Below are positions 4,318-32,403 of a stretch of 64,000 nucleotides of DNA, piece after piece. Source of the stretch: Planctomycetota bacterium (lineage in GTDB: Bacteria > Planctomycetota > Phycisphaerae > SM23-33); NCBI GenBank assembly GCA_016235825.1, contig JACRIL010000102.1, forward strand, positions 751-64,750, in the 5' to 3' direction. Position numbers and translations under genes: made by a program. The notes under the pieces are model-generated. The model searched no databases and had not been told where the DNA came from. It worked only from the letters and a program-made list of their open reading frames with translations. Each line of letters opens with the position of its first letter. Position 1 is the stretch's first letter.

Positions 4318-5415
4318 ATGTCCCGGAGGCGAAAGATAACCTGGCTTGTCGTCCTGCTGGTCCTGGCCGGCGGCTCCGGCGGTTATTGCTGGTACTGGCG
4401 GTCCACCGCCGTCGACCGCAAGGTCCGCCAACTTGTCTACGAAGCCGCAGGATACCCGGACACAAGGACAGAAAGAATCCTCAGGAAAATGAAACTGGAT
4501 TTCCTGATCCGCGAAAAGCCAAAATCCAGAAGAGATGATGGAATGATGTTTTGGGAAGAGAGCGTTATAGTCAAGGAAATTGAAGCTATCGGTATTGCTG
4601 CCACACCAGAACTCCTTTCTATGCTTAAAGACGAGAATAACGATATACGCTATAAGGCTGCCGAATTCCTCGGTCGGATCAGAGACGCAAGGTCGATTGA
4701 ACCCTTGATACAGATACTGCAGACAGAACATGATTTAAAAGTTTGAAGATTTTTACCTTACGTTCTTAGTTGGTTTGGGGACAAAAGAGTGGTAGATCCG
4801 CTGATTATGGCAATGCAGAAGGATTCAGATTCAGAGGTTCGTTGCCACTCAGCTATCGCCCTCGCTAAACTTGGCGACAAAAGGGCGGTAGACCCGCTGA
4901 TCCGGGCAATGCGGAATGATTCAGATTCACAAGTACGTTGGTATTCAATTATTGCCCTTGATGAACTTGGTGACAAAAGAGCGGCTGTACCGTTGATAGA
5001 GATATTGCAGAAAAATGAAATAGGGTATGTCCGACGACATGCAGCTGAAGTCCTTGGGAAACTGGGCGACACAAGAGCATTAGAACCACTGATTGAGGCA
5101 ATGCAGAAGGATGCTGATAGGAATGTCCGATATGCTTCGGTAACAGCTCTTGGCAAACTGGGTGACAAAAAAGCTTTTGAGCCTCTCATGCAAGCTTTGG
5201 CAAAGGATAGGGATGAAGATCATTTTATTCAAGGATACGCGGCAGTCGCCCTTGGCGAACTTGGCGATCCTCGCGCATTAAATGCAGTTGAAGACGCATA
5301 TAAAAATGATTTTGACAAGACTTCGCATCAATTCTACGAGGCAGCGATAGCGAAGCTCAAGTCCGCCGCGACGAGGCCGGGGGAGGTTGGCACGCGGCCG
5401 GCGGGAAAACTATAA
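4318..5415 (+). pseudogene. membrane-anchored HEAT (PBS-lyase type) repeat protein interrupted by an in-frame TGA at 4744-4746
   Basis: ORFs 4318..4746 and 4789..5415 are in the same frame. The 31-aa repeats D.(E/Q)VR......AL..LGD.RA..PLI continue straight across the stop (HDLKV*RFLPYVLSWFGDKRVVDPLI). The stop aligns with the conserved Arg of the VR motif. This is a low-GC region. Confidence 0.6.
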
Positions 5416-5685
5416 TTCAGCAGATGGCCGGTTCAGGCAGGAACAATTCGAGTTCCTGCAGCAGCATGAGATTATCCGCGATCTGTCGAGCTACGGCACA
5501 TCGTGCGGGCGTCCATTCGTCAGGAGACCGCGGTTCTTCAAACCGCCTGATCGTGAAAGGAATGACATGAACGAATCGCCACAGAATGCAATGAAGAAGC
5601 TGAGGCTCAGCGGTATGAGCCGGACGCTGGATGTCCGGTCCAGTGTCGCCGAGCGGATCAAAACCAGCCAATAGTTGTGGTTTTC

Positions 5686-11908: not shown

Positions 11909-12273
11909 GTATCAAGAAACACCCAGCCAATGATTTTGGTCGGGGCATTTACCCATTAGGGTGGTAAACCATACTCGGTCAAGACTTGTCCGGCGAAGTC
12001 AGGTTAAGGTGTTATTTTTCTCTACAATCGACTAATTTTTCATCGAAAGATATTGGCCTGTGCGTTCCGGGATTTGGGATCATCTGCCGTGGCGTGATCG
12101 CACCTTTTGAAATGCTCTGAACGGCGACTATTCCCCGGGTTCCGCTGGGGCAACTGACCTGGCCGCCGCATCGCCATATCGGATGCCTCCGGGATGATTC
12201 GATCTTGCCAAGAGGGAAAAATGCGGGTAAAGACAATAGTTGAGCGGTTTTTCCGCATGACTGGAGCATACAG

Positions 12274-12636
12274 ATGCCGAAGATCGAGACATTCTCCAAC
12301 CCGCGTCCCCAAAGGGACTACATTATCAGGCACGTGGCGCCCGAGTTCACGTCGGTCTGCCCCAAGACCGGCCAGCCGGATTTCGGCACGATCGAGATCG
12401 AATACGTGGCCGGCCGGCTCTGCATGGAACTCAAGAGCCTCAAGTTGTACCTTCAGGGCTACCGCGGCGTCGGGGCTTTTTACGAGGACGTGGTCAACCG
12501 CATACTCGACGATCTTGCGGCGGCGTGCCGCCCGCGGTGGATGACCGTGATAGGCAAATTCGCGCCGCGGGGCGGGATGCACTCGATCATAACGGCCTCG
12601 TACTCGCCTGCCCGCCGGGCCAGGTCAAGGAAATAG
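12274..12636 (+). CDS. queF: NADPH-dependent 7-cyano-7-deazaguanine (preQ0) reductase
   Basis: [21 protein letters not shown] (catalytic Cys) and ELKSLKLYL motifs. Unimodular size of 120 aa. GGAG SD. Confidence 0.9.
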
Positions 12637-12639
12637 GCC

Positions 12640-13782
12640 GTGCCGGTCCGACAAAGGCATCTGGTCCGTCTGCTCCTGCTGCCGGCGGCGTGTTTGATGG
12701 CCGGCGCCATCTTCAATCTCAACTGCCGGAAATCCGCCAGCAATGAAGTTCCGTCCAAAACCGCCGATTCCGCCGCCGCGACCAGACCTGACGGCGAACC
12801 GGTCCGCCTGTCCGCCCTGATCGAGCGGGTCATGGGATGCGACTGCCGGCTGACCGTGTATCTGCCGGCGGGCCAGGAAGGCCGGTTCGACGGGCTGGTT
12901 TCCGACGCGGCCGGGCAGTTGCAGAAGCTCGAGGGCCTGATGAGCATCTATCGCCCGCAGTCGGAGATTTCGGTCTTTAACGCGGCCCCCGCCGGCCGCG
13001 AGACGCCCTTTTCCGAGCCTGTCATGGCGATCATGCTCGCCAGCCGGAAATTCCACGAACAATCCGGCGGCACGTTCGACGTAACGTGCCTGCCGATCAT
13101 CGCCGCATGGCGCCAGGCCGGCAAGGCGGGCCAACTGCCCGACCGCGGCAAACTCGACGGCGCCGTCGCGCTGGCCGGCTGGAAAAAGATCACGCTCACC
13201 GAGCGCGGGGCGGTCAAGCTCGACGACCGGGCCGGCGTGGACCTGGGCGGGATAGCCAAAGGCTACGCGGTGGATCGCCTTGCCGAGTCGCTGATAAAGG
13301 CCGGCGTGCCGGCGGGCATGGTCGATCTGGGCGGCAGCAGCATACGATGTTTCGGCCGGCGGAGCGACGGCGCAAAATGGCGGATCGGGGTGCGAAATCC
13401 GTTCAATCCGCGCGGCGAACTGATGGGCGTGCTGGAAATTCAGGAAGGTTCGCTGAGCGTCAGCGGGAATTACGAGAAATTCATCGAGATCGCCGGCAAA
13501 CGGTACAGCCACATCGTCGATCCGCGAACGGGCGAAACTGCCGACAGGACGCCAAGCGCCGTCGTCGTCGCGCCCGACGCCATGACGGCCGAGGCCTGGT
13601 CCAAGCCGCTGAGCATTTTGGGCAAGGAAGGTTTCAAACTCATCCCGGCCGGCAGCGGCATCGAGGCGATGATCGTCGTCGGCGGGCCGGACAAACACGA
13701 AATCCTGTCAACGCCCGGCTTTGACCGGTTCATGTCCGTTGCGACCCGGCCGGAGACCGCCCCGGCCTCCCCGGAAAAATAA
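12640..13782 (+). CDS. apbE: FAD:protein FMN transferase (ApbE family lipoprotein)
   Basis: GGTFDVT, DLGGIAKGYAVDRL, SVSGNYEKF and YSHIVDPRTGE motifs, with an N-terminal signal. Confidence 0.85.
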   Translation: MPVRQRHLVRLLLLPAACLMAGAIFNLNCRKSASNEVPSKTADSAAATRPDGEPVRLSALIERVMGCDCRLTVYLPAGQEGRFDGLVSDAAGQLQKLEGLMSIYRPQSEISVFNAAPAGRETPFSEPVMAIMLASRKFHEQSGGTFDVTCLPIIAAWRQAGKAGQLPDRGKLDGAVALAGWKKITLTERGAVKLDDRAGVDLGGIAKGYAVDRLAESLIKAGVPAGMVDLGGSSIRCFGRRSDGAKWRIGVRNPFNPRGELMGVLEIQEGSLSVSGNYEKFIEIAGKRYSHIVDPRTGETADRTPSAVVVAPDAMTAEAWSKPLSILGKEGFKLIPAGSGIEAMIVVGGPDKHEILSTPGFDRFMSVATRPETAPASPEK

Positions 13783-13835
13783 GCCCGGACAGGGCGGCAC
13801 ATTTTACAACCCGTCGAAAAAATTCTTCGTCCCTC

Positions 13836-13864
13836 TTGGCAGGCGGCCGGCTGCGGCGTAGAAT
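13836..13864 (+). promoter_or_regulatory. sigma70-like promoter TTGGCA-17 nt-TAGAAT
   Basis: TTGGCA at 13836-13841, a 17-nt spacer and TAGAAT at 13859-13864. It lies 54 nt after the apbE stop. Confidence 0.5.
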
Positions 13865-13870
13865 ACAATA

Positions 13871-14087
13871 CGCTTCAGGGTTTCTGCCGTGTCCGACAGG
13901 CGGTTAGATTGAAAGGCCGATACGCCCGTTTCGGGAGGCAAGCGCGTGTTGCTCCGGCGACAGCCAGCCGCCCACTTGAAATAACGGGTCTTTCAAGCAG
14001 CCGCCACCGGCACAAAGGCGGACGCCCGGGCAATTTGGACGATGCACCTCTGTGCATCAGCCCACGGCTTGCCGTGGGCTTTTTTTT
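13871..14087 (+). ncRNA. candidate ~220-nt structured small RNA (family unassigned), or a terminated leader upstream of prfB
   Basis: Bounded by the promoter above and a strong intrinsic terminator. Long-range pairing 13899-13918 / 13986-14005 (GGCGG..TTGAAAGGCC with GGGTCTTTCAA..CCGCC). Internal hairpins CCCG-TTT-CGGG and GATGCAC-CTCT-GTGCATC. No convincing ORF. Confidence 0.45.
14059..14087 (+). terminator. Rho-independent terminator
   Basis: AGCCCACG-GCTTGC-CGTGGGCT followed by an eight-T run. Confidence 0.8.
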
Positions 14088-14190
14088 CGCCTGGCTGTCG
14101 GAAACGGCAAACTCATTTGTGCGAAAACAGTTCTTGTGTTGCGGCCGGGGCGGGCTGTGGATATCATTCCCCGCCAAAGGGACATGAAAA

Positions 14191-15304
14191 ATGGCAGAAG
14201 CGTCGGCAGTCAAACAGGACATCGAAAACCTCAGCGCCCGGATCATCGCGACCCGGGACTCTCTTTGACCTGCCCGGCAAGCAAAAACGCCTGGGGGCCC
14301 TGGAAGAGCAGATGTCCGGGGCGAATTTCTGGTCGAACCAGGAATCGGCCCAGAAGGTCGTGGCGGAACTCAAGGCTCTCAAGGGCGTTCTGAGTCCGAT
14401 AGCCGACCTGACCCGCCGCATGGACGACCTGAAGGTTCTGCACGAGCTGGCCGTCGAGGCCGCCAGCGACCAGGACCTGCAGGACGCCGCTCGCGAGGCC
14501 GGTGAACTGGCGGCCGAACTCGACCGCATCGAACTGAAAACCATGCTCTCCGGGCCGCACGACGCCGGCGGATGCTTTTTCTCCATCCACGCCGGGGCTG
14601 GCGGGACCGAAAGCTGCGACTGGGCCTCGATGCTCTTTCGGATGTACCTGCGATTCTTCGAGCGGGCGGGCTTTTCCGTCGAGGAGGTGGACCGCGTCGA
14701 CGGCGAGGAGGCCGGCATCCGCTCGACAACCCTCCGCGTAACCGGCCCATATGCTTATGGATATCTTTCATGCGAGCGCGGCGTGCACCGGCTGGTCCGC
14801 ATCAGCCCCTTTAATGCGCAGGGCAAGAGGCAGACCAGTTTCGCATCGGTCGACGTGCTGCCGGAACTGGCCGATGTGGAAATCCAGATCGACTGGCAAA
14901 ATGATGTGCGCGAGGACACCTACTGCGCCAGCGGGGCCGGCGGCCAGCACGTCAACAAAACGGCCAGCGCCGTGCGGCTGGTGCACACCCCGACGGGCAT
15001 CGTCGCGGCCTGCCAGAACGAGCGGAGCCAGCACAAGAACCGCGCCACCGCCCGCAGCATGCTGATGGCCAAGCTCTTCCAGCGCGAACAGGCCAAACGC
15101 GACGCCGATCTGGCCAAACTCTACGGAGACAAGGGCGAGATCGCCTTCGGCTACCAGATCCGGTCATATGTGCTGTACCCATACCAGCTCGTCCGCGACG
15201 AGCGTACCGATCTGAAAAGCCCACGAACCGACAAGATACTCGACGGCGACATCCAGGAATTCATCGACGCCTACCTGCGCCACCGCCTGACGGCCAAAAA
15301 ATAA
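14191..15304 (+). CDS. prfB: peptide chain release factor 2, join(14191..14265,14267..15304), programmed +1 frameshift
   Basis: ORF0 MAEASAVKQDIENLSARIIATRDSL ends at CTT TGA C (TGA at 14266-14268). The +1 frame continues DLPGKQKRLGALEEQMS... It has the SPF tripeptide (RISPFNAQGKRQTSF) and GGQ (SGAGGQHVNKT). Confidence 0.9.
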
Positions 15305-31538: not shown

Positions 31539-32039
31539 TCATGGATTCAGGGGCTGGTCGCTCTGGTCTTCCTTGAGCAGGTCGGCGAGGGTCTGCTCGT
31601 CCCGCGAGGCGTCGAGTTTAGCAGCGGCGGGAGATTCGATGGCTTCAATGCCCGAGATGGTGTCGGAAAACTTTCCGCCGACCGGGCCTGATGTGTCATC
31701 CTTGGCGATCGCCAGGCCGACCGACGAGGCCAGTATCGCCCGCGGCATGCCGTTGACCTGGAGGATAAGCGTGAAAGGCCCCAGCGTCAGTTTGTCGCCA
31801 GCCTTCATCCACGCCTCGCGGATCTTCCTGCCGTTCAGAAACGTCCCGTTGGACGAGCCCAGGTCCTTGAGCTTGATCCGGTTGTCCTCCTCCAGTGCGA
31901 TTTCGCAGTGATAGCGCGAGATGCTCTTGCTGAGGACACGCAGGCCGCAGTCGTCGGCCCGGCCGATCACGATGCTCTCCGTGACGGGGAATTCCGCCCG
32001 TTTGCCGTCGGAACTGAAGCGTATCAGTTTGACTTCCAT
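31539..32039 (-). CDS. FHA domain protein
   Basis: IVIGRADDCGLRV...ISRYHCEI...LKDLGSSNGTFLNGRKI, with a disordered acidic tail. Confidence 0.75.
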   Translation of the reverse strand: MEVKLIRFSSDGKRAEFPVTESIVIGRADDCGLRVLSKSISRYHCEIALEEDNRIKLKDLGSSNGTFLNGRKIREAWMKAGDKLTLGPFTLILQVNGMPRAILASSVGLAIAKDDTSGPVGGKFSDTISGIEAIESPAAAKLDASRDEQTLADLLKEDQSDQPLNP

Positions 32040-32211
32040 AAGACCGATGTCCTGGTTGCCTATCCGGATAGGCACTGGTATCTGCCTGTATAATATCATC
32101 TTCGGCCTGTTTGGTTAATAATGAATCCTGAATTCGGGGCGGAATCCATAAATCCTTTTCAGATGGGCAACAGATGTTCCATATCTCGCCGGTTCGGAGC
32201 AACCGATTCGC

Positions 32212-32403
32212 AGGCTCGAAGAGCCGGTAGACAGTAGCCGTAGGCGTAAGCCTACGGTACGGATTGCTCCAGGATAAAGAGCCTCGGAGAGGCGACAGAA
32301 ATTTCTGAAAGTCTGTGCCGCCTCGTCGAGGCTCAAATCATAATGGGCCTGAATTCCGGAGGCTTACGCCTCCGGCTACTCTCTTCCAACCCTTCGGGTT
32401 TGG
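32212..32403. repeat. ~190-bp foldback built from two inverted family-1 units flanking a central imperfect hairpin
   Basis: The 32212-32262 unit is ggctcgaagagccggtagacAGTAGCCgtaggcGTAAgcctacgg. The central hairpin is 32278-32334 (GAGCCTCGGAGAGGCG...CGCCTCGTCGAGGCTC). The reverse complement of 32355-32403 is acccgaagggttggaagagAGTAGCCggaggcGTAAgcctccgg. Confidence 0.75.

What the first reader, a model, noticed from the sequence alone, without database searches (positions are those of the whole stretch)
13836..14087. Promoter-to-terminator bounded ~220-nt structured RNA candidate between apbE and prfB
A good sigma70-type promoter (TTGGCA-17-TAGAAT, 13836-13864) lies 54 nt after the apbE stop. 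About 220 nt downstream there is a textbook intrinsic terminator: an 8-bp GC stem plus eight T, at 14059-14087. The terminator is preceded by another hairpin (GATGCAC-CTCT-GTGCATC). The interval has no credible ORF. It does show long-range pairing (13899-13918 with 13986-14005) that encloses smaller hairpins. The size and architecture fit a housekeeping sRNA (6S-like length) or a terminating leader/attenuator for prfB, whose ATG is 104 nt further on. I could not match it by eye to SRP, RNase P, tmRNA or known riboswitch cores.
Basis: partly seen in the sequence, partly recalled or inferred. Interest (0 to 1): 0.5.

Follow-up and report, generated by a model that had tools for sequence, protein, structure and literature searches.

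The report
6S RNA gene (ssrS) before prfB
The structured RNA between apbE and prfB is a 6S RNA gene, the widespread small RNA that mimics an open promoter to sequester RNA polymerase. It is an ordinary housekeeping gene, here in a compact form in a poorly sampled Phycisphaerae-like planctomycete.

Summary
Every detail of the observation checks out: the promoter-like site at 13836-13864, the hairpin at 14041-14058, the terminator at 14059-14087, the long-range pairing, and the absence of a credible ORF.

The RNA has a known identity. Rfam's 6S/SsrS model (RF00013) matches 13878-14028 (+) end to end at 49.2 bits (gathering 46.4; E 8e-7 for the whole window). Independent support:
- The fold is strand-specific (z -3.2 on +, +0.2 on -).
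- A 14 x 13 nt central bubble costs only 0.7 kcal/mol to hold fully open.
- A GCCGAU motif puts U13921 in the same model column as E. coli U44, the pRNA start.
- A CUUGAAA/UUUCAAG "release hairpin" sits at the same model columns as in E. coli.
- 39 of 44 shared model pairs are canonical, and 17 differ from E. coli on both sides.
- The only canonical intrinsic terminator in the 64 kb lies 52 nt downstream.

Departures from the norm: the upstream arm is about 35 model positions shorter, and there is a 59-nt two-hairpin 3' tail.

No orthologue could be retrieved (nearest ApbE 50% identical, RF2 58%), so covariation within the clade is untested. The prfB-attenuator alternative has no support.

Verdict: a new member of a known kind, of low interest.

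The parts
13817..13829 (+). A/T-rich block (AAAAAATTCTTCG) about -54 to -42 from the predicted start. Possibly an UP-element-like enhancer of the promoter.
   Evidence: Read directly from the sequence. The window is 60% G+C. The function is inferred only.
13836..13864 (+). Sigma-70-type promoter-like site TTGGCA-17-TAGAAT. The predicted transcription start is about 13870-13872.
   Evidence: 10 of 12 consensus positions and the only hit in 2 kb; one of 5 such sites on the + strand of the whole window. The start site is inferred from spacing.
13878..14028 (+). 6S RNA (SsrS) body as matched by Rfam RF00013. Pairing extends it to 13872-14031.
   Evidence: 49.2 bits against a gathering score of 46.4, E 8e-7, model positions 1-187 covered. 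MFE pairs 13872-13875 with 14028-14031; z -3.2 on the + strand against +0.19 on the - strand.
13872..13918 (+). 5' arm of the closing (downstream) helix. This is the template strand for the predicted product RNA.
   Evidence: One search gives the pair list and the model pairs 2-42 with 145-185.
13919..13932 (+). 5' strand of the central bubble (GAUACGCCCGUUUC). U13921 is the predicted pRNA initiation site, giving a predicted pRNA of 5'-AUCGGCCUUUCAAUCUAACC.
   Evidence: U13921 falls in the same model column (45) as E. coli U44, and the GCCGAU motif is shared. (PMC9670815) states that U44 is the pRNA start in E. coli; the fully open bubble costs only 0.7 kcal/mol above the MFE.
13933..13973 (+). 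Terminal (upstream) stem-loop. It has about 15 bp with four small interruptions and a UCCG loop, and is about 35 model positions shorter than the family consensus.
   Evidence: 35 model positions replaced by 2 nt; pairs; 7 apical model pairs deleted.
13974..13986 (+). 3' strand of the central bubble (ACUUGAAAUAACG), the '-10-like' strand.
   Evidence: CCCACUU aligns to the conserved CCCACCU. One search gives the unpaired probabilities.
13975..13997 (+). Latent release hairpin: CUUGAAA (13975-13981) pairs with UUUCAAG (13991-13997) around a 9-nt loop. It can form once the 5' arm is occupied by pRNA.
   Evidence: the hairpin forms when 20 nt of template are masked, and the E. coli control forms CCUUGAACC/GGUUCAAGG from 9 nt. 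The two hairpins occupy the same model columns. The mechanism is described in PMC9670815.
13987..14031 (+). 3' arm of the closing (downstream) helix.
14041..14058 (+). Extra 7-bp hairpin GAUGCAC-CUCU-GUGCAUC in the 3' tail. Its role is unknown; it may be a precursor trailer or a 3' protection element.
   Evidence: -8.5 kcal/mol. One search gives only sub-threshold generic Rfam matches here.
14059..14087 (+). Intrinsic terminator: a 9-bp stem (7 G-C), a CUUG loop and U8.
   Evidence: the only such terminator in the 64 kb, either strand; -17.2 kcal/mol.

Best explanation
This is the ssrS gene, which encodes 6S RNA.

Proposed sequence of events:
1. The gene is transcribed from its own sigma-70-type promoter, starting at about 13870-13872, and terminated at the U8 tract (14087).
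2. The transcript folds into a rod: a long closing helix (13872-13918 with 13987-14031), a 14 x 13 nt central bubble, and a short terminal stem-loop (13933-13973).
3. By analogy with E. coli and B. subtilis 6S, the rod occupies the active-site cleft of the housekeeping RNA polymerase holoenzyme as an open-promoter mimic. This damps sigma-70/SigA-dependent transcription when nutrients are scarce.
4. On outgrowth, the polymerase copies the 5' arm starting opposite U13921, making a pRNA of 5'-AUCGGCCUUUCAA...
5. That frees the 3' arm to pair with the bubble strand (CUUGAAA with UUUCAAG), and the 6S:pRNA complex is released.
6. The 59-nt tail (hairpin plus terminator) is most likely a precursor trailer trimmed to the base of the rod, or a retained 3' stabiliser.

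Shown here: family membership by covariance model, the architecture, the strand specificity, and the promoter and terminator.

Inferred: expression, polymerase binding, pRNA synthesis, and the fate of the tail.
For: - Family match: RF00013 matches 13878-14028 (+) over the full model at 49.2 bits (gathering 46.4), E 8e-7 for the 64-kb window and 7.6e-9 locally. It is the only 6S hit in the window.
- Empirical background: there were no 6S hits at gathering in about 219 kb of related PVC/Planctomycetota DNA. There were none at E<=10 in the roughly 100 kb of that DNA re-scanned at that threshold.
- Conserved positions: 31 of the 41 highly conserved consensus positions that are present in the window are matched.
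- Base pairs: 39 of 44 shared model pairs are canonical. Against the experimentally defined E. coli 6S (139.8 bits), 17 pairs are identical and 17 are changed on both sides.
- pRNA start: GCCGAU puts U13921 in the model column of E. coli U44, the conserved pRNA start (PMC9670815).
- Release hairpin: a hairpin equivalent to the E. coli -10:DH hairpin can form at the same columns.
- Central bubble: the open form is only 0.7 kcal/mol above the MFE.
- Strand specificity: -74.8 kcal/mol (z -3.2) on the + strand against -60.6 kcal/mol (z +0.19) on the - strand.
- Transcription signals: a 10/12 promoter ends 14 nt before the match, and the only canonical terminator in 128 kb of scanned strand ends 59 nt after it.
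- No coding signal: overlapping ORFs have no Pfam match.
Against: - The score is only 2.8 bits above the gathering threshold.
- Thirty-five consensus positions are missing, covering the apical half of the upstream arm and 19 of the family's 60 highly conserved positions. The 15-bp arm looks too short to offer a full -35 mimic.
- No orthologue was found next to prfB or ApbE in any relative, nor by sequence in 726 kb of fetched loci. Within-clade covariation is therefore untested.
- The comparison with E. coli rests on an alignment fitted to the model's structure.
- The MFE structure closes part of the bubble (UUUC with GAAA), and mean unpaired probability there is about 0.53, against 0.83 for the E. 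coli 5' bubble strand.
- With 9-16 nt of template masked, the predicted rearrangement is a different one: the 5' bubble strand pairs with ACGGGU. The E. coli-like hairpin wins only at 20 nt.
- 6S was reported as not found in three Planctomycetia species (PMC5673643).
Confidence: 0.87

Rival explanations
1. It is a structured small RNA with its own promoter and terminator but is not a functional 6S. On this reading it is a lineage-specific sRNA whose long G+C-rich rod happens to score just over the 6S threshold.
For: The score is marginal at 49.2 against 46.4 bits. The upstream arm is truncated and lacks 19 conserved positions. No homologues are available to show that 6S-specific features are conserved. 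6S has been reported missing in Planctomycetia.
Against: The E-value of 8e-7 already corrects for window size and 4227 families. Related DNA produced no sub-threshold 6S matches at all. Agreement goes beyond a generic rod: the GCCGAU/U44 column, CCCAC(U/C)U on the 3' bubble strand, CUGCxGUGUxCGxCAG in the closing stem, and a release hairpin at the same columns.
Confidence: 0.08
2. It is a cis-acting leader or attenuator of prfB. Transcription from 13871 would terminate at 14087 or read through into prfB, depending on a signal sensed by the structured leader.
For: The element is on the same strand as prfB and 104 nt upstream of its start. No other promoter-like site of >=9/12 lies between 13000 and the prfB start, so some prfB transcription could come from read-through.
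Against: The rod, the small hairpin and the terminator fold as three independent modules, and no alternative structure competes with the terminator. No riboswitch or leader family matches, even at E<=1. Nothing similar lies upstream of prfB in 18 PVC relatives. This prfB already carries its classical autoregulatory +1 frameshift, CUU UGA C at 14263-14269. The 6S match explains the structure.
Confidence: 0.04
3. It is a small protein-coding gene, or an element transcribed from the minus strand.
For: Mechanical ORFs of 92 aa (+) and 123 aa (-) overlap the region.
Against: None of the ORFs has a Pfam match. The + ORF starts with TTG and runs through the terminator. The minus strand folds no better than shuffled sequence (z +0.19) and has no promoter or terminator.
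Confidence: 0.01

Closest known systems
Escherichia coli 6S RNA (ssrS, Rfam RF00013)
   Same: It is a rod with a closing helix, a central bubble and an upstream arm. The GCCGAU motif places the templating U in the same model column (U44 in E. coli, U13921 here). The 3' bubble strand carries CAC(C/U)UUGAA. A hairpin between the -10-like strand and the upper arm of the downstream helix can form at the same columns. Of the shared pairs, 17 are identical and 17 are compensatory.
   Different: The body is about 151-160 nt against 184 nt, because the upstream arm lacks its apical 35 model positions. It has its own intrinsic terminator 59 nt beyond the rod, whereas E. coli co-transcribes ssrS with the downstream fau/ygfA gene and processes the transcript. 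Its neighbours are apbE and prfB, not zapA and fau. It scores 49 bits against 140.
Truncated Bacillus subtilis 6S-1 RNA variants (central bubble flanked by two short arms)
   Same: The helical arm on the upstream side is shortened. According to the abstract of PMC8876501, such truncated RNAs still complete the mechanistic 6S cycle in vitro, with about 10-fold lower RNA polymerase affinity. A short upstream arm is therefore compatible with 6S function.
   Different: Those are engineered truncations and this is a natural gene. Here only the upstream arm is short, and the closing helix is full length or longer and more continuously paired than the family consensus.
Ms1 RNA of Actinobacteria
   Same: It is a rod-like, 6S-related RNA with a central bubble plus additional short terminal hairpins (PMC9130861). 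The RNA here also carries an extra 3' hairpin.
   Different: Ms1 is about 300 nt, binds the RNA polymerase core rather than the holoenzyme, and is confined to Actinobacteria. The Rfam scan at E<=1 listed no Ms1 family here, and 6S was the best match.

Membership tests
6S RNA / SsrS (Rfam RF00013) | The covariance-model score is at or above the curated gathering threshold, with the full model covered. | tested here: met
   49.2 bits against 46.4, model positions 1-187, E 8e-7 for the window. The margin is small.
6S RNA / SsrS (Rfam RF00013) | An extended rod about 150-200 nt long, made of a closing helix, a large central bubble and a terminal stem-loop. | tested here: met
   The MFE and the model alignment agree on 13872-13918/13987-14031, a 14 x 13 nt bubble and the 13933-13973 stem-loop. 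The fold has z -3.2 on the + strand only.
6S RNA / SsrS (Rfam RF00013) | The central bubble is open, as in an open promoter complex. | tested here: inconclusive
   The fully open bubble is only 0.7 kcal/mol above the MFE. However, mean unpaired probability is about 0.53, with UUUC/GAAA pairing across the bubble in the free RNA. The polymerase-bound state cannot be computed.
6S RNA / SsrS (Rfam RF00013) | A templating start nucleotide on the 5' bubble strand, followed by a template helix for pRNA. | tested here: met
   GCCGAU is shared, and U13921 occupies the same model column as E. coli U44. Actual pRNA synthesis cannot be tested here.
6S RNA / SsrS (Rfam RF00013) | A pRNA-induced rearrangement forms a hairpin between the -10-like strand and the upper arm of the downstream helix. 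| tested here: met
   CUUGAAA (13975-81) and UUUCAAG (13991-97) form a 7-bp hairpin when 20 nt of template are masked. The E. coli control behaves likewise from 9 nt. At 9-16 nt a different rearrangement is predicted here.
6S RNA / SsrS (Rfam RF00013) | A full-length upstream arm with conserved bulges that mimics the -35 element. | tested here: not met
   Thirty-five model positions, including 7 apical pairs and 19 conserved positions, are absent. The arm is about 15 bp, though two proximal internal loops remain. This feature characterises the proteobacterial type, and engineered short-armed variants still work.
6S RNA / SsrS (Rfam RF00013) | The helices are supported by covariation among homologues. 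| tested here: inconclusive
   No orthologue could be retrieved. The pairwise comparison with E. coli gives 17 compensatory pairs of 44, on a model-fitted alignment.
6S RNA / SsrS (Rfam RF00013) | An abundant, stable transcript that binds the housekeeping RNA polymerase holoenzyme. | not testable with these tools
   Only the promoter and terminator signals are available.
Terminating leader / attenuator of prfB | Mutually exclusive terminator and antiterminator structures, conserved upstream of the regulated gene. | tested here: not met
   The terminator folds independently of the rod. No counterpart lies upstream of prfB in relatives. No cis-regulatory Rfam family matches.
Ms1 RNA | An actinobacterial RNA of about 300 nt with its own Rfam-detectable signature that binds the polymerase core. 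| tested here: not met
   The scan at E<=1 listed no Ms1 family. The length is about 160-217 nt, and the organism looks like Phycisphaerae.

The most novel reading that the evidence does not exclude
The most novel reading has three parts.
1. This is a naturally minimised 6S RNA from a deep, barely sampled Phycisphaerae lineage. Its 15-bp upstream arm cannot reach sigma region 4, so it would bind RNA polymerase without a -35 mimic.
2. 6S would then be ancestral in Planctomycetota, rather than absent as reported for three Planctomycetia species.
3. The strong 6S promoter, through partial read-through of the terminator, would also drive prfB. prfB has no recognisable promoter of its own, so release-factor-2 supply would be coupled to the 6S growth-phase programme.
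Probability: 0.15. Interest if true: 0.4.

Novelty: new member of a known kind. Interest (0 to 1): 0.2.

Why it matters
It settles the annotation. The apbE-prfB spacer holds a standard housekeeping ncRNA gene (ssrS), not a new regulator of prfB. A routine Rfam-based pipeline would call it.

The modest added value is taxonomic and structural:
- Its upstream arm is unusually short. Together with orthologues from complete genomes, it could seed a clade-specific model for finding 6S RNAs that the general model misses.

Tried and rejected
Searches for relatives that led nowhere:
1. Orthologous spacers via RF2 in genome contigs gave a best identity of 58%, from Phycisphaerae and Sedimentisphaerales MAGs. 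No 6S lay near prfB, either at gathering in 18 loci or at E<=10 in 8 loci.
2. ApbE in metagenome contigs returned only relatives at 26-34% identity. ApbE against the 5.8-billion-protein collection gave a best of 49-50%. Four of the closest ApbE contigs were fetched; none has prfB or a 6S downstream.
3. blastn and nhmmer of 13836-14190 against all 91 fetched loci (726 kb) found nothing.
4. I considered a single-sequence covariance model of the window RNA but did not build it. The far more sensitive family model had already found nothing at E<=10 in the same loci.
The viral collection was judged irrelevant.

Alternative identities rejected:
6. Repeated element or REP-like palindrome: rejected, because the element is single-copy in the window.
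7. Coding ORFs: rejected.
8. Minus-strand RNA: rejected.
9. Sub-threshold Rfam matches to the 3' tail (BcKCsr7, mmgR/suhB, NsiR1, anti-hemB, ncS54) score 16-25 bits against gathering scores of 39-59. They only reflect a generic hairpin-plus-terminator shape.

Literature:
10. Wehner et al. 2014 (PMC4615782) could not be read, so its statement on Planctomycetes is quoted second-hand from PMC5673643.

Full report
**Observation.**
- The ApbE ORF spans 12640-13782 (PF02424, E 8e-69). prfB starts with ATG at 14191 and has PCRF and RF-1 domains.
- The promoter-like site TTGGCA-17-TAGAAT lies at 13836-13864. It is the only such site in a 2-kb scan, against 0.2 expected from shuffles. My own whole-window scan found just 7 sites of that quality (>=10/12) on both strands together.
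- The terminator is a 9-pair stem (7 G-C) at 14059-14080, with the T8 run at 14080-14087. It is the only perfect-stem + T7 terminator on either strand of the 64 kb.
- The GATGCAC-CTCT-GTGCATC hairpin lies at 14041-14058.
- The pairing of 13899-13918 with 13987-14005 is part of the minimum-free-energy fold.
- The 217-nt unit folds at -102.5 kcal/mol with z = -4.5.
- The mechanical ORFs that overlap the region have no Pfam match.
- The element is single-copy in the window.

**Identity.** A scan of the whole window against Rfam 15 gives one match to RF00013, 6S/SsrS RNA. It lies at 13878-14028 on the + strand and scores 49.2 bits against a gathering score of 46.4. The E-value is 8e-7, and the match covers model positions 1-187 (alignment). 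The margin over threshold is small, so I looked for independent support.

**Anatomy.** The model alignment and the thermodynamic fold agree on a rod with three parts:
- The closing helix pairs 13872-13918 with 13987-14031. It is more continuously paired than the family consensus.
- The central bubble has a 14-nt 5' strand (GAUACGCCCGUUUC, 13919-13932) and a 13-nt 3' strand (ACUUGAAAUAACG, 13974-13986).
- The terminal stem-loop spans 13933-13973.

The MFE draws a few pairs across the bubble. Removing all of them costs only 0.7 kcal/mol (-74.1 against -74.8), so the open form is freely accessible.

The structure is strand-specific. The + strand folds at -74.8 kcal/mol (z -3.2, 0 of 200 shuffles as good). 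The reverse complement reaches -60.6 kcal/mol (z +0.19).

**Comparison with a characterised 6S.** I fetched E. coli K-12 ssrS (L091:284-466) and aligned it to the same Rfam model, where it scores 139.8 bits. Column by column:
- 44 model base pairs are present in both RNAs, and 39 of them are canonical in the window RNA.
- 17 are the same pair as in E. coli, 2 differ on one side, and 17 differ on both sides while staying canonical.
- This is weak covariation evidence. It rests on two sequences and a model-fitted alignment, but it points the right way.

The window RNA matches 31 of the 41 highly conserved consensus positions that it retains. These include CUGCxGUGUxCGxCAG in the closing helix, GCCGA at the bubble edge, GGG/CCCAC flanking the upstream arm, and CGGCAC...GCGG at the 3' end.

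**Mechanistic features.** In E. coli, RNA polymerase bound to 6S initiates a product RNA at the conserved U44. [quoted passage not shown] The freed upper arm then pairs with the -10-like bubble strand, which ejects sigma-70 and releases the complex (PMC9670815).
- The window RNA has the same GCCGAU, and U13921 sits in the same model column as U44.
- The predicted pRNA is 5'-AUCGGCCUUUCAAUCUAACC. It shares its first six nucleotides with the complement of the E. coli template read from U44.
- The 3' bubble strand CUUGAAA (13975-13981) nearly copies the 5'-arm segment AUUGAAA. It is perfectly complementary to UUUCAAG (13991-13997) in the upper arm.
- When I masked 20 nt of template, this 7-bp hairpin formed. 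In the E. coli control, the known CCUUGAACC/GGUUCAAGG hairpin formed from 9 nt. The two hairpins occupy the same model columns.
- With 9-16 nt masked, a different rearrangement is predicted for the window RNA. The release pathway is therefore plausible, not demonstrated.

**Departures from the norm.** The upstream arm lacks 35 model positions, which are the apical 7 pairs and 19 conserved positions. This leaves about 15 bp with two proximal internal loops. By my reckoning that is too short to present a -35-like surface, though this is an inference. Engineered B. subtilis 6S-1 RNAs with two short arms still complete the 6S cycle in vitro at about 10-fold lower affinity (PMC8876501 abstract), so this does not argue against function.

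Beyond the rod lies a 59-nt tail made of a 7-bp hairpin and the terminator. It has only generic sub-threshold Rfam matches. I take it to be a precursor trailer or a 3' stabiliser, but that is a guess.

**Relatives.**
- RF2 and ApbE place the window among Planctomycetota of the class Phycisphaerae. RF2 is at best 58% identical to Phycisphaerae, Sedimentisphaerales and Planctomycetota MAGs. The named ApbE hits are Phycisphaerae.
- Nothing close exists in the collections available. The best ApbE among 5.8 billion proteins is 49-50% identical.
- No fetched relative has apbE next to prfB.
- No 6S is found beside either gene, at gathering or at E<=10.
- The spacer has no sequence match in 726 kb of fetched loci.

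The same scans do serve as an empirical background: about 219 kb of related DNA gave no 6S hit at gathering, and the roughly 100 kb of it re-scanned at E<=10 gave none either.

**Rivals.**
- prfB attenuator: the rod, the small hairpin and the terminator fold as independent modules, and no antiterminator is predicted. No leader or riboswitch family matches. Relatives have nothing comparable. prfB already carries its classical CUU UGA C +1 frameshift at 14263-14269.
- Non-6S sRNA that merely scores like 6S: this cannot be excluded, given the marginal score and the truncated arm. It would, however, need to reproduce by chance the start-site motif, the bubble-strand motif and the release hairpin.
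- Coding or minus-strand readings are rejected.

**Novelty.** 6S RNA is a long-known, widespread family, and this example passes the curated threshold, so standard annotation would find it. The literature I could read holds no paper with both '6S RNA' and 'Planctomycetota'. One genome paper found no 6S in Thermogutta terrifontis. It cites Wehner et al. [quoted passage not shown] I could not read Wehner et al. directly.

This is therefore a new member of a known kind in an under-sampled class, with a compact upstream arm. Interest is low.

Noticed in passing
window 32212-32257 (-) and 32356-32401 (+): Two Rfam Acido-Lenti-1 RNA (RF01687) matches lie above gathering (43.9 and 47.6 bits against 37). 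They are about 100 nt apart in divergent orientation, next to an FHA-domain gene at 31542-32099 (-). The motif was described only from Acidobacteria and Lentisphaerae (PMC2864571), whereas this window looks like Phycisphaerae.
   Followed up: partly
window 14191-15304, frameshift site 14263-14269: prfB keeps the classical programmed +1 frameshift. The 0 frame runs from ATG 14191 to TGA 14266-14268 within TCT CTT TGA C. The +1 frame continues through the PCRF and RF-1 domains.
   Followed up: yes
window 5387-5416 (+): A second strong promoter-like site, TTGGCA-18-TATAAT (11 of 12), shares 15 of 16 nt with the -35 and spacer of the 6S promoter (TTGGCA[C/G]GCGGCCGGC). Both also resemble a partial sigma-54 -24/-12 element (TGGCA[C/G]G-N4-CGGC) that lacks the TT. 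This may be a shared promoter architecture or coincidence.
   Followed up: no
whole window, both strands: Only one canonical intrinsic terminator (perfect stem of >=6 bp plus T7) exists in the 64 kb, and it belongs to the 6S gene. This genome seems to use such terminators rarely. No tRNA or tmRNA gene is present in the window.
   Followed up: partly
window 14088-14190: The scan finds no promoter-like site of >=9/12 in the 104-nt spacer between the 6S terminator and prfB. By eye, the best candidate is a weak TTGCGG-17-TATCAT near 14139-14167. prfB may depend partly on read-through from the 6S promoter.
   Followed up: no
loci L087-L090 against window 12194-13782: In the closest ApbE relatives, QueF (and QueC) sit just upstream of ApbE, but the gene downstream differs in every case. 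The apbE-6S-prfB arrangement seems unique to this lineage.
   Followed up: partly
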